Counted from the first letter of the stretch, positions 3,432 to 3,556 are shown. The stretch: 64,000 nucleotides of DNA from a virus (IMGVR_UViG_3300035034_002381:1-64000), one strand, 5' to 3'. Numbers and translations are program-made. Notes: a model not told the origin generated them from the sequence alone.

Positions 3432-3556
3432 TGCCGGGTTAGTGTAAGGGTCAACACACGTAAAGTAAACATAGTGAACTTTACGAATCACTTAGAATAA
3501 CTAACTATACAATCCATATGGAGGACGGATAACTGGTTCGAGTCCAGTGCCTGGCA
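3432..3556 (+). ncRNA. tRNA-like RNA with anticodon region replaced by a ~74-nt insertion (Y-RNA/YrlA-like candidate)
   Basis: Perfect 7-bp acceptor GCCGGGT/GCCTGGC (2 G-U), canonical D-arm GTGT-AAGGGTCA-ACAC, T-arm ACTGG-TTCGAGT-CCAGT. Between D-arm and T-arm lies hairpin CGTAAAG...CTTTTACG plus about 45 nt containing CTTAGAATA. Confidence 0.5.

What the first reader, a model, noticed from the sequence alone, without database searches (positions are those of the whole stretch)
3432..3556. tRNA-like gene with perfect acceptor, D-arm and T-arm but a 74-nt insert instead of the anticodon arm
A 7-bp acceptor (GCCGGGT/GCCTGGC), a canonical 4-bp D-stem with an 8-nt GG-containing loop, and an ACTGG-TTCGAGT-CCAGT T-arm are spaced exactly as in a tRNA. 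Positions 27-48 are replaced by a 7-bp hairpin (CGTAAAG...CTTTTACG) plus about 45 nt. It cannot decode. It resembles a tRNA mimic such as YrlA, an intron-containing tRNA, or a regulatory decoy.
Basis: seen in the sequence. Interest (0 to 1): 0.7.

Follow-up and report, generated by a model that had tools for sequence, protein, structure and literature searches.

The report
tRNA-shaped Y-like RNA beside phage Ro60
This is a real, conserved tRNA-shaped RNA gene in a T4-like phage whose anticodon stem carries an inserted hairpin-plus-CUUAGAA module, and it lies just upstream of a very divergent Ro60-like protein gene, so it is most likely a new kind of Y RNA (tRNA mimic) and not a decoding tRNA.

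Summary
Window 3433-3556 (+) has a 7-bp acceptor stem, a D arm and a T arm with exact tRNA spacing. ARAGORN and Rfam do not call it.

It is not a one-off. I found 18 relatives, plus 3 with a variant motif, in other phage contigs. All lie just upstream of, and on the same strand as, one conserved 600-670-aa gene. Acceptor, T and insert helices covary.

It is a 4-6-bp hairpin H (3473-3477/3488-3492) followed by CUUAGAA(U). Downstream is a vestigial anticodon-like hairpin (3513-3525) at the normal distance from the T arm.

Best reading (confidence 0.55): a Y-RNA/YrlA-like tRNA mimic that presents a binding module for the phage Ro60-like protein. It works like YrlA but fails YrlA membership on topology, motif and Rfam score. 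I rate it a new variant of a known kind. Binding and expression are untested.

The parts
3433..3439 (+). Acceptor stem, 5' strand (GCCGGGU)
   Evidence: Pairs 7/7 with 3549-3555. All 7 pairs show double-sided changes across 18 homologues.
3442..3457 (+). D arm: GUGU - AAGGGUCA - ACAC, with G18 G19. U8 A9 lie at 3440-3441 and A26 at 3458.
   Evidence: D arms with GG loops and varying stems (GUUU/GAAC, GACU/GGUC, GCUC/GAGC, GUCU/GGAC) occur in 10 relatives. The D arm is absent in the L131-L135/L153 clade.
3459..3485 (+). It is lineage-specific and alternative to H.
   Evidence: It recurs only in copy B, L131 and L139 (GUAAA/UUUAC core). It is absent where the H loop is 4-7 nt. C27 G28 (3459-3460) can instead pair with 3526-3527.
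3472..3492 (+). Conserved hairpin H: U, then AGUGA (3473-3477), a 10-nt loop, then UCACU (3488-3492)
   Evidence: Present in all 18 class-A relatives with covariation: AGUGA/UCACU, AGUGU/ACACU, AGUGG/CCACU, AGAAG/CUUCU, AGAAAG/CUUUCU, AGAGA/UCUCU. The first pair is flipped to U-A in the CAUAGAA variants.
3491..3500 (+). Motif CUUAGAAUAA. The CU closes H. UAGAAU follows the helix. This is the proposed protein-binding site.
   Evidence: Present in all 18 members located through an exact CTTAGAA search, so its invariance there is partly by construction; three further members carry CAUAGAA. Across 29 loci there are 106 copies on the Ro-gene strand and 15 on the opposite strand, and 71% have a helix partner. 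Density peaks just upstream of the Ro-like gene.
3501..3512 (+). A-rich linker (CUAACUAUACAA)
   Evidence: A-rich in all relatives.
3513..3527 (+). Vestigial anticodon-like arm: UCC - AUAUGGA - GGA, then C G that can pair with C27 G28
   Evidence: Aligns with UCC-AUUCCAA-GGA-CG (L149b)...GGA-GC with G27 C28 (L163b, double compensatory) and UCC-AUUAGAA-GGA-CG (L150). The loop has U33. The only substitution between the window and the 99.8%-identical L124 falls at loop position 34.
3528..3548 (+). 4-nt variable loop (GAUA), then T arm ACUGG-UUCGAGU-CCAGU
   Evidence: T stem covaries in 4/5 pairs.
3549..3556 (+). Acceptor 3' strand GCCUGGC plus discriminator A. No encoded CCA (next bases are CAA).
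4529..6472 (+). Divergent Ro60/Rsr-like protein (647 aa). HEAT-type ring plus vWA domain with MIDAS DGSGSM. Proposed partner of the RNA.
3567..3627 (+). Copy B: truncated paralogue of the finding. Acceptor 5' strand, D arm and hairpin remain; the 3' half has been deleted.
   Evidence: B is intact in L124 4724-4850 (99.8% strain). The window lacks 271 nt there.
3335..3428 (+). Motif 'unit': 10-bp end stem AAAUUCUUCU/AGAAGAAUUU with CUUAGAAU. It encloses a degenerate, acceptor-less tRNA body.
   Evidence: (tRNA 22 bits).
3761..3888 (+). Motif 'unit' with an 18-bp end stem and about 90 nt of cargo
4364..4510 (+). Two further CUUAGAA copies directly upstream of the Ro-like gene. One is followed by a lone T arm, AUUGG-UUCGAUU-CCAAU.
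   Evidence: Analogous T-arm-plus-closed-acceptor units occur in L148 and L151.
9366..9488 (+). Motif 'unit' enclosing a circularly permuted tRNA (T arm, closed acceptor, D arm, anticodon arm CUUGAAA). This is YrlA-like topology.
   Evidence: Rfam YrlA local hit at 9397-9450, 16 bits, far below the gathering score of 69. Homologues at L001 6729-6860 and L163 ~690-800.

Best explanation
Window 3433-3556 encodes a tRNA-derived non-coding RNA of about 124 nt that works as a Y-RNA-like partner of the phage's own Ro60-like protein.

Shown:
- The RNA keeps the parts of a tRNA that give processing and shape: a 7-bp acceptor stem, a T arm, and a D arm with G18 G19.
- Its anticodon stem is split by an insert of about 52 nt.
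- The conserved core of the insert is a short hairpin H immediately followed by UAGAAU (motif CUUAGAAU).
- The family is conserved with covariation.
- It always lies just upstream of a gene whose product folds like Ro60.
- The same helix+CUUAGAA module is reused many times around that gene, usually as a stem formed by the 5' and 3' ends of small RNAs. That is the architecture of Y RNAs.

Inferred:
- The RNA is transcribed with the tRNA array. RNase P cuts its 5' end, and it is trimmed and given CCA at its 3' end like a tRNA.
- The ring-shaped Ro60-like protein binds the H/CUUAGAA module, as Ro60 binds the conserved helix with the CGAA-type motif of Y RNAs.
- The tRNA-shaped body then acts as the second module. 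It either recruits tRNA-handling or RNA-degrading enzymes, or gates the ring, during infection. The likely purpose is surveillance or repair of phage and host tRNAs.

In this copy the RNA probably does not decode.
For: - Anatomy is confirmed in sequence.
- 18 homologues have 7/7 acceptors. Cells paired are 99.3% against 71% in shuffles. Covariation score is 0.787 against 0.214 (0 of 500 shuffles as high) and 0.09-0.18 in slid controls.
- The neighbouring ORF is Ro60-like by structure with two independent methods. The Ro60 of Thermus phage phiLo is among the top hits.
- Class-A RNAs are found upstream of the gene on the same strand in the window, L127, L130-L135, L139, L141, L144, L146, L149 (two copies), L153, L159 and L163 (two copies), and with variant motifs in L148, L150 and L151.
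- Motif census: 106 copies on the sense strand against 15 on the antisense strand. A helix of >=8 bp occurs at 42% of motif sites against 6.8% of control CT sites.
- Density is 2.9 per kb in the 500 nt upstream of the Ro-like gene, falling to <=0.3 per kb beyond 1.5 kb and downstream.
- Precedent from the literature. Y RNAs are encoded next to Ro60 genes in more than 250 bacteria and phages. YrlA carries T, D and acceptor-like elements and a 5'-strand GNCGAA motif at the top of the end stem (PMC4201824). Phage phiLo has two Y-like RNAs with a CGAA motif upstream of its Ro60 gene, and these bind it (PMC12135203).
- The permuted-tRNA unit at 9366-9488 reproduces the YrlA order of elements, and YrlA is the only non-tRNA Rfam family that touches it.
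Against: - No binding, expression or processing data exist. The link to the Ro-like protein rests on gene neighbourhood and analogy.
- The motif (CUUAGAA) differs from the Ro-binding motifs known so far (GGUCCGA, GNCGAA). In this RNA it lies in an internal capped hairpin and not in an end stem.
- The protein has no sequence-level TROVE match and carries extra inserted beta-rich segments. An S4-like hit appears in 5 of 41 homologues. Its RNA specificity could therefore be quite different.
- Several relatives keep perfect anticodon arms with U33 and R37, and the Rfam tRNA model scores them at 54-55 bits. This hints at a tRNA function.
- All loci were collected through the Ro-like gene, so I have not tested whether the motif also exists in phages without it. 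The only indirect check is that among 120 random viral pattern hits just one showed units, and that one also carries the gene.
- Family members were selected partly by requiring pairing, which inflates the percentage paired.
Confidence: 0.55

Rival explanations
1. The helix+CUUAGAA module is a processing or recognition signal for some other factor, such as a phage or host endoribonuclease, a modification enzyme or an RNA chaperone. On this reading it marks RNAs of the phage tRNA cluster (leader-trailer stems, tRNA-like RNAs), and the Ro-like gene is only a neighbour in the same cluster.
For: - Most copies (57 of 75 with a partner) are leader/trailer stems around cargo that includes ordinary tRNAs, for example L001 7150-7275 and L146 3225-3330. 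That resembles processing stems.
- The conserved 153-aa ORF (2715-3176) and 187-aa ORF (6577-7140) of unknown function flank the same region.
- A PNK-like gene (35015-35989) shows that the phage invests in RNA end-healing.
Against: - The density gradient is centred on the Ro-like gene start, not on tRNA genes in general. The two big tRNA arrays of the window (229-1094 and 9277-10979) hold only one copy between them.
- A 5'/3'-end stem with a conserved 5'-strand motif next to an internal loop is the defining Y RNA layout.
Confidence: 0.2
2. It is a working tRNA. Either the insert is removed by a protein-dependent splicing reaction, or the RNA is aminoacylated and decodes while carrying an extra arm.
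For: - Relatives L146, L141, L144, L127 and L139 have 5-bp anticodon stems and 7-nt loops with U33 and R37 (UGA, UAC, UAU, CAU) at the canonical distance from the T arm.
- L163a has the insert inside an anticodon loop that starts AUGAAA (GAA, Phe).
- Rfam tRNA scores are 54.8 and 54.3 bits.
- The only substitution between the two 99.8%-identical strains is at loop position 34.
Against: - The insert position varies: 26/27, 28/29, within the anticodon loop, or replacing the D arm. There are no conserved splice-site distances from H and no bulge-helix-bulge motif.
- 45-60 nt is far too small for a group I intron.
- No RtcB or splicing endonuclease was found among the ORFs scanned.
- The L131-L135 clade lacks a D arm.
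- In the window copy the anticodon stem has 3+2 split pairs, and the loop AUAUGGA has A34.
- ARAGORN and Rfam do not call it.
Confidence: 0.12
3. It is a decaying tRNA pseudogene that was hit by a repeated or mobile sequence, or by a DNA-level element such as a promoter (TAGAAT resembles a -10 box) or a recombination site. On this reading it has no RNA function.
For: - The region is full of tRNA debris: copy B is truncated by a 271-nt deletion, and there is a degenerate tRNA at 3359-3415 and a minihelix at 309-347.
- The motif is repeated.
- TAGAAT matches TATAAT at 5 of 6 positions.
Against: - Conservation with compensatory changes holds across phages whose Ro-like proteins are only 42-67% identical.
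- Helix partners differ in sequence between copies but stay complementary. That points to RNA-level or single-strand-level selection, not shared terminal repeats.
- The last base of the hexamer varies (TAGAAT 30, A 9, C 7, G 4), although it is the most conserved -10 position.
- Strand bias is strong, 106 against 15.
- The motif lies inside the RNA body here.
Confidence: 0.06
4. It is a decoy for a host tRNA-targeting defence. CUUAGAA is exactly the anticodon-loop sequence of tRNA-Leu(UAG), and many copies might titrate an anticodon nuclease.
For: - CUUAGAA is the anticodon loop of a genuine tRNA in L132 9105-9187.
- L150 has AUUAGAA in its anticodon-like loop.
- The phage carries a PNK-like repair gene.
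Against: - In the motif, C and U are paired within helix H. UAGAA is not closed into a 7-nt loop, so it does not mimic an anticodon stem-loop.
- No such nuclease is known to me.
- The idea does not explain the tight link to the Ro-like gene.
Confidence: 0.04

Closest known systems
YrlA / bacterial Y RNAs (Rfam RF02553; Chen et al. 2014, PMC4201824)
   Same: It is encoded next to a Ro60-type gene on the same strand. It is modular: a protein-binding helix with a short conserved purine-rich motif (…GAA) plus a tRNA-like module with T arm, D arm (G18 G19) and acceptor stem. The circular order D arm, then binding helix, then V hairpin, then T arm, then acceptor is the same. There are several copies per genome. 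M. smegmatis YrlA is even opened by RNase P and receives CCA.
   Different: Here the RNA ends are in an open, tRNA-like acceptor stem and the binding helix is capped by a loop, so it is a circular permutation of YrlA. The motif is C(U/A)UAGAA, not GNCGAAN0-1G. An anticodon-like arm is retained. Rfam YrlA does not detect it. The partner protein has no sequence-detectable TROVE domain. Sister RNAs enclose complete tRNAs.
Yrl1/Yrl2 of Thermus phage phiLo with phiRo60 (PMC12135203; PDB 9L5Y)
   Different: The phiLo RNAs are classical stem-bulge-stem Y RNAs with a CGAA motif. They are not tRNA-embedded. The host and phage type are unrelated to this T4-like phage.
Phage T4 stable RNAs, species 1 and 2 (rnaC, rnaD)
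   Same: They are 119-139-nt stable RNAs of unknown function encoded inside the tRNA cluster of a T4-type phage. rnaC ends with a canonical T arm, CCGGG-UUCGAAU-CCCGG.
   Different: There is no CUUAGAA module, no D arm that I could see and no Ro-like gene in T4. No sequence similarity was found. The functional relation is unknown.
Intron-containing and circularly permuted tRNA genes (archaea; the red alga Cyanidioschyzon merolae) and tmRNA
   Same: A tRNA body is interrupted by extra RNA. Sister loci (9366-9488) have the 3' half before the 5' half. tmRNA likewise keeps acceptor and T arm around a large insert.
   Different: There is no bulge-helix-bulge motif, no consistent splice sites and no mRNA-like reading frame or tag. 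ARAGORN finds no tmRNA. The insert carries a conserved protein-binding-type motif instead.

Membership tests
YrlA / Y RNA (RF02553) | Encoded adjacent to a Ro60 (TROVE plus vWA) gene | tested here: met
   The Ro60-like ORF 4529-6472 starts 973 nt downstream on the same strand. The fold match to Ro60 is by structure only. The synteny is conserved in about 20 contigs.
YrlA / Y RNA (RF02553) | A long stem formed by the RNA's own 5' and 3' ends that carries the Ro-binding site | tested here: not met
   The ends of 3433-3556 form a tRNA acceptor stem. The candidate binding helix H is internal and loop-capped. Sister 'units' (3335-3428, 3761-3888, 9366-9488) do meet this feature.
YrlA / Y RNA (RF02553) | Conserved GNCGAAN0-1G (or GGUCCGA) motif on the 5' strand | tested here: not met
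   The motif here is CUUAGAAU, with CAUAGAA in some relatives. Only the GAA is shared.
YrlA / Y RNA (RF02553) | tRNA-like module with T arm, D arm and acceptor-like stem | tested here: met
   Covariation.
YrlA / Y RNA (RF02553) | Scores with the Rfam covariance model at or above gathering (69 bits) | tested here: not met
   No YrlA hit on 3250-3900 even at E<=10. There is a 16-bit local hit on the permuted unit 9397-9450 only.
YrlA / Y RNA (RF02553) | Physically bound by the Ro60 orthologue | not testable with these tools
   This needs RIP or EMSA.
tRNA (RF00005) | 7-bp acceptor, D arm and T arm with canonical spacing and tertiary-pair nucleotides (U8, G18 G19, T-loop UUCRANY) | tested here: met
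tRNA (RF00005) | Continuous 5-bp anticodon stem with 7-nt loop directly after position 26 | tested here: not met
   Only UCC/GGA plus a split C27 G28/C94 G95 around a 52-nt insert. The loop is AUAUGGA.
tRNA (RF00005) | Detected by ARAGORN or the Rfam tRNA model | tested here: not met
   Not called. Relatives L146 and L163a are detected at 54-55 bits, and L001 7304-7394 scores 28.4 bits.
Ro60 / TROVE protein family (for the partner ORF 4529-6472) | HEAT-repeat ring closed by a vWA domain with a MIDAS motif | tested here: met
Ro60 / TROVE protein family (for the partner ORF 4529-6472) | Sequence match to Pfam TROVE or to PDB Ro60 chains | tested here: not met
   No TROVE hit in any of 41 homologues. 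Only VWA hits, plus one vWA_Ro60 hit at E 0.0046. No PDB sequence hit.
Intron-containing tRNA (bulge-helix-bulge or group I) | Conserved splice-site structure and an insert at a fixed position that restores a tRNA when removed | tested here: not met
   The insert position differs among relatives. No BHB motif is present. The insert is far shorter than any group I intron.

The most novel reading that the evidence does not exclude
The helix+CUUAGAA module may be a portable 'Ro handle' that this phage lineage grafts onto real tRNAs. It appears as leader-trailer stems around ordinary tRNAs, as an extra arm at the D/anticodon junction of tRNAs that still have perfect anticodon arms, and in permuted two-piece forms. 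On this reading a Ro60-like ring acts directly on phage tRNA biogenesis, quality control or availability. Some of these handle-bearing RNAs would be aminoacylated, and perhaps decoding, tRNAs with a fifth arm. That would be a new structural class of tRNA and the first direct functional coupling of Ro60 to tRNAs.
Probability: 0.15. Interest if true: 0.85.

Novelty: new variant of a known kind. Interest (0 to 1): 0.66.

Why it matters
Ro60 and its Y RNAs are conserved from bacteria to humans, where Ro60 is a lupus and Sjögren autoantigen. What the tRNA-like half of bacterial Y RNAs is for remains open.

Here a sequence-undetectable Ro60 relative in environmental T4-like phages is surrounded by up to about nine small RNAs that share one helix+CUUAGAA module. 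The module is displayed in several topologies on tRNA bodies, on permuted tRNAs and around genuine tRNAs.

If the module is the Ro handle, three things follow:
- It extends Ro/Y systems to a large phage group that current models (Pfam TROVE, Rfam YrlA) miss.
- It gives a natural series of circular permutations with which to test how Y RNA architecture relates to function.
- It ties Ro directly to tRNA metabolism during infection.

It also explains tRNA-like genes that tRNA finders skip in phage tRNA arrays.

Tried and rejected
- Small self-cleaving ribozyme in the insert (hammerhead, twister, pistol, hatchet, HDV-like 'theta'). No Rfam hit at E<=10 on the window region or on L001. The cargo between motif and partner is not conserved. 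Rejected.
- Group I or archaeal-type intron. The size is wrong, there is no BHB motif, and the insert position varies. Rejected as the main reading.
- tmRNA or two-piece tmRNA. ARAGORN and Rfam give nothing.
- A close annotated phage relative. None exists in INPHARED; there were only tRNA-sized hits.
- A pattern scan of viral contigs with CTTAGAATNNNTAAAAC was too unspecific. It returned 120 mostly chance loci, and only L082 was relevant.
- Two contig look-ups returned no DNA.
- Searching relatives through the 153-aa neighbour gave only two contigs.
- The genome-contig scan gave one MAG fragment and no host clue.
The connecting loop of 2 nt cannot span a 7-bp stem, so I treat them as alternatives.
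- A search for the missing 3' half of copy B in the window. This was resolved by the 271-nt deletion seen against L124.
- I did not build a covariance model. The family's variable insert positions made a single full-length alignment unreliable, so I used anchored fixed-length segments instead.

Full report
**Observation.** The sequence at 3433-3556 (+) reads GCCGGGU-UA-GUGU-AAGGGUCA-ACAC-A-…-ACUGG-UUCGAGU-CCAGU-GCCUGGC-A. The features are as follows.
- The acceptor has 7 pairs, two of them G-U.
- The D stem has 4 pairs and an 8-nt GG loop.
- The T arm is canonical.
- The spacing 7+2+4+8+4+1 … 5+7+5+7+1 is that of a tRNA.

ARAGORN finds 21 tRNAs in the window but not this one. Rfam finds nothing here at gathering threshold or at E<=10. 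The RNA folds better than shuffles (z -2.77). No annotated phage is close.

**Context in the window.** The first 11 kb is a tRNA-array region of a T4-like phage. The phage type is set by a Gp23-type capsid protein (19214-21007), a prohead protease (17120-19195) and a PNK-like ORF (35015-35989).

A T-arm scan and an acceptor search show many uncalled tRNA-like pieces. A short motif, CTTAGAAT, recurs at 3343, 3491, 3777, 4364, 4485 and 9373. The copy at 3491 lies inside the finding's insert. Immediately downstream of the finding, 3567-3627 repeats its 5' half (copy B).

**Related loci.** The 153-aa neighbour (2715-3176) led to contig L001. Its equivalent intergenic region holds at least nine units of the form X-CUUAGAA-cargo-NNUAG-X'. 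X and X' are complementary but differ from copy to copy. The cargo can be any of the following:
- about 50 nt of unremarkable RNA;
- a complete tRNA;
- a circularly permuted tRNA, which also occurs in the window at 9366-9488;
- an RNA built like the finding (L001 7283-7395), in the reverse arrangement.

Strains 99.8% identical to the window (L124-L126) carry the finding with a single substitution. They carry copy B intact (L124 4724-4850). The window has lost 271 nt there.

**The neighbouring protein.** The 647-aa ORF at 4529-6472 has an invariant DGSGSM motif and 95 homologues, none with a Pfam domain.
- An AlphaFold2 model built on 41 homologues reaches pLDDT 84 and pTM 0.80.
- Foldseek against the PDB returns Ro60 as the top nine hits over the full length.
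- Sequence methods see only the vWA part. There is no TROVE hit in any of 41 members. PHROG 850, 'RNA-binding protein', matches at E 8e-16.

The protein is therefore a structurally recognisable but sequence-divergent Ro60 relative.

**The RNA family.** I collected 40 further loci through this protein. An anchored search then found 18 distinct RNAs built like the finding. Three more use the variant motif CAUAGAA. All lie upstream of the Ro-like gene on its strand.

The common plan, 5' to 3', is:
1. a 7-bp acceptor strand;
2. a D arm, present in about 13 members and absent in the L131-L135/L153 clade;
3. a spacer;
4. U, then hairpin H (AG-nnn, a loop of 4-12 nt, nnn-CU), then UAGAA(U/A)AA;
5. 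an A-rich linker;
6. a hairpin with a 7-nt loop that always has U33;
7. 4-5 nt;
8. the T arm, the acceptor 3' strand and a discriminator.

On a fixed-length alignment of the anchored segments, 99.3% of cells pair against 71% in shuffles. Double-sided changes occur in 7/7 acceptor pairs, 4/5 T pairs and 2/4 H pairs. The covariation score is 0.787, against 0.214 in shuffles (0 of 500 as high) and 0.09-0.18 in slid controls. The first H pair, invariant A-U in that set, is flipped to U-A in the CAUAGAA variants. One caveat applies: members were chosen partly by requiring pairing, so percentage paired is inflated. The diversity of pair types is not affected.

**What the insert looks like in the window copy.**
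- H is AGUGA/UCACU (3473-3477/3488-3492) and CUUAGAAU is 3491-3498.
The cloverleaf with S1 scores -28.3 kcal/mol and the cloverleaf with H scores -25.7 kcal/mol.
- S1-type pairing recurs only in copy B, L131 and L139. It is impossible in relatives whose H loop is 4-7 nt.
- UCC-AUAUGGA-GGA (3513-3525) aligns with UCC-AUUCCAA-GGA in L149b and L163b and with UCC-AUUAGAA-GGA in L150.
- The next two bases (CG, or GC in L163b) are complementary to the two bases that follow position 26 (CG, or GC). This is a double compensatory change.

The body is therefore a tRNA whose anticodon stem is split after pair 28-42 by about 52 nt. In other relatives the module sits before an intact anticodon arm (L141, L144, L146), inside the anticodon loop (L163a) or in place of the D arm (L132 clade). 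Rfam's tRNA model scores L146 and L163a at 54.8 and 54.3 bits over the whole model.

**The motif at large.** Over 29 non-redundant loci (190 kb), CTTAGAA occurs 106 times on the strand of the Ro-like gene and 15 times on the other strand. Of the 106, 75 have a partner helix: 18 capped hairpins and 57 end-stem units. In the recount over 25 of these loci, a partner helix of at least 8 bp is found at 39 of 93 motif sites, against 493 of 7269 control CT sites.

Sites with a helix reach 2.9 per kb in the 500 nt before the Ro-like gene, 1.6 per kb at 500-1000 nt and 1.15 per kb at 1000-1500 nt. They are 0.3 per kb or less elsewhere, including downstream. In the window the six intergenic copies all lie between 3.3 and 9.4 kb. 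The other 19 copies are scattered in ORFs at about the chance level.

**Comparison with what is known.** Bacterial Y RNAs are encoded next to Ro60 genes. They have a stem formed by their 5' and 3' ends, with a conserved 5'-strand motif (GNCGAAN0-1G) next to a large internal loop. In YrlA the second module mimics a tRNA, in the order stem, V, T arm, closed acceptor-like hairpin, D arm, stem (PMC4201824). Thermus phage phiLo has two Y-like RNAs with a CGAA motif upstream of its Ro60 gene. These bind the protein and, together with it, host PNPase (PMC12135203).

The end-stem units found here have that layout. The permuted-tRNA unit at 9366-9488 even draws a weak local hit of the Rfam YrlA model across T arm, closed acceptor and D arm (16 bits against a gathering score of 69).

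The finding itself has the same circular order of elements but is opened at the acceptor and closed at the binding helix. It works like a YrlA on this reading but fails three defining features of the family: end stem, motif and model score. T4's own tRNA cluster encodes two stable RNAs of unknown function, and rnaC has a T arm. They share no motif with this family.

**Mechanism and confidence.** I regard it as established (about 0.9) that this is a selected, structured, tRNA-derived RNA gene carrying a conserved hairpin-CUUAGAA module. That the module is the handle for the Ro60-like protein is an inference from conserved adjacency, strand, density gradient and architectural analogy. I give the whole model 0.55.

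The rivals are:
- a signal for another factor (0.20);
- a working or spliced tRNA (0.12);
- non-functional or DNA-level debris (0.06);
- an anticodon-loop decoy (0.04).

Nothing here tests transcription, processing or binding.

**Verdict.** The YrlA-like interpretation is partly supported. The element is a new variant of a known kind (Ro60 with Y RNA), and the family-level picture is considerably richer than the single locus suggested.

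Noticed in passing
window 9366-9488: This is a circularly permuted tRNA inside a CUUAGAA end stem. The order is T arm, acceptor 3' strand, UUUUA, acceptor 5' strand, D arm GCC-AAAUGGUUA-GGC, then an anticodon arm with loop CUUGAAA. The D arm is conserved in L001 6729-6860 and in L163. There is a weak Rfam YrlA local hit at 9397-9450 (16 bits).
   Followed up: partly
window 3567-3627 vs L124 4724-5056: Copy B is a tandem paralogue of the finding. It is intact in 99.8%-identical strains but truncated in the window by a 271-nt deletion between two CTAAAAAA repeats. The deletion also removes the start of a 94-aa ORF.
   Followed up: yes
window 309-347: A 39-nt acceptor-plus-T-arm minihelix (AUUCAGA-UAAGGUU-CUGGG UUCGAAU CCCAG-UCUGAAU-A) sits between two tRNA genes. 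It has no D or anticodon arm.
   Followed up: no
window 9155-9244; 9797-9875; 9882-9960; 10566-10644; 10788-10898: These are further tRNA-like genes that ARAGORN does not call. One is a 90-nt Ser(UGA)-like gene with a long variable arm. Three are 79-nt Leu-like paralogues with an unusual D region. One is a 111-nt RNA (UUGACCG/CGGUCGA) with a variable region of about 45 nt and no CUUAGAA.
   Followed up: no
L124 4724-4850, L130 3628-3744, L141 1241-1355, L144 3349-3469: The T stem has a conserved bulged U (CCG(U)GG/CCCGG and ACG(U)GG/CCCGU) and a compensatory change in the first pair.
   Followed up: partly
L148 ~393-515, L150 ~3274-3398, L151 ~3233-3374: These class-A RNAs use CAUAGAA instead of CUUAGAA, with partner UG… instead of AG…, so the first pair is flipped. 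The anticodon-like loop in L150 is AUUAGAA, which resembles the motif itself.
   Followed up: partly
L082 (minus strand) 6935-6690 = L129 3576-3868: At the syntenic place another phage has an element of about 290 nt. It starts GCCGGGA and ends with GGCUGG-CUCAAAU-CCGGCC-UCGGGCA-CCA, a T-arm-like hairpin plus an encoded CCA. ARAGORN does not identify it.
   Followed up: no
window 4529-6472 and homologues (alignment A3): The Ro60-like protein has extra beta-rich segments (about residues 133-151 and 187-239 in the model). Five of 41 homologues give a Pfam S4 RNA-binding-domain hit (best E 5e-5).
   Followed up: no
window 8274-8636 and 35015-35989: A 120-aa ORF gives a weak hit to the tRNA-ligase cyclic phosphodiesterase domain (E 0.0025, 26 residues). 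A 324-aa ORF combines a P-loop kinase (Zeta_toxin/AAA_33/KTI12) with an NT5C-type phosphatase. This resembles T4 polynucleotide kinase and suggests RNA end-healing functions.
   Followed up: no
window 2-30, 1121-1149, 2643-2671, 3718-3749, 10981-11012: An (A/T)AAAACTTT-type sequence recurs just upstream of ORFs. It may be a phage promoter or regulatory box.
   Followed up: no
window 3184-3261 and ~4426: There are two more indels relative to the near-identical strains. The window has 78 nt that L124 lacks, just after the 153-aa ORF. L124 has 38 nt that the window lacks, upstream of the Ro-like gene.
   Followed up: no
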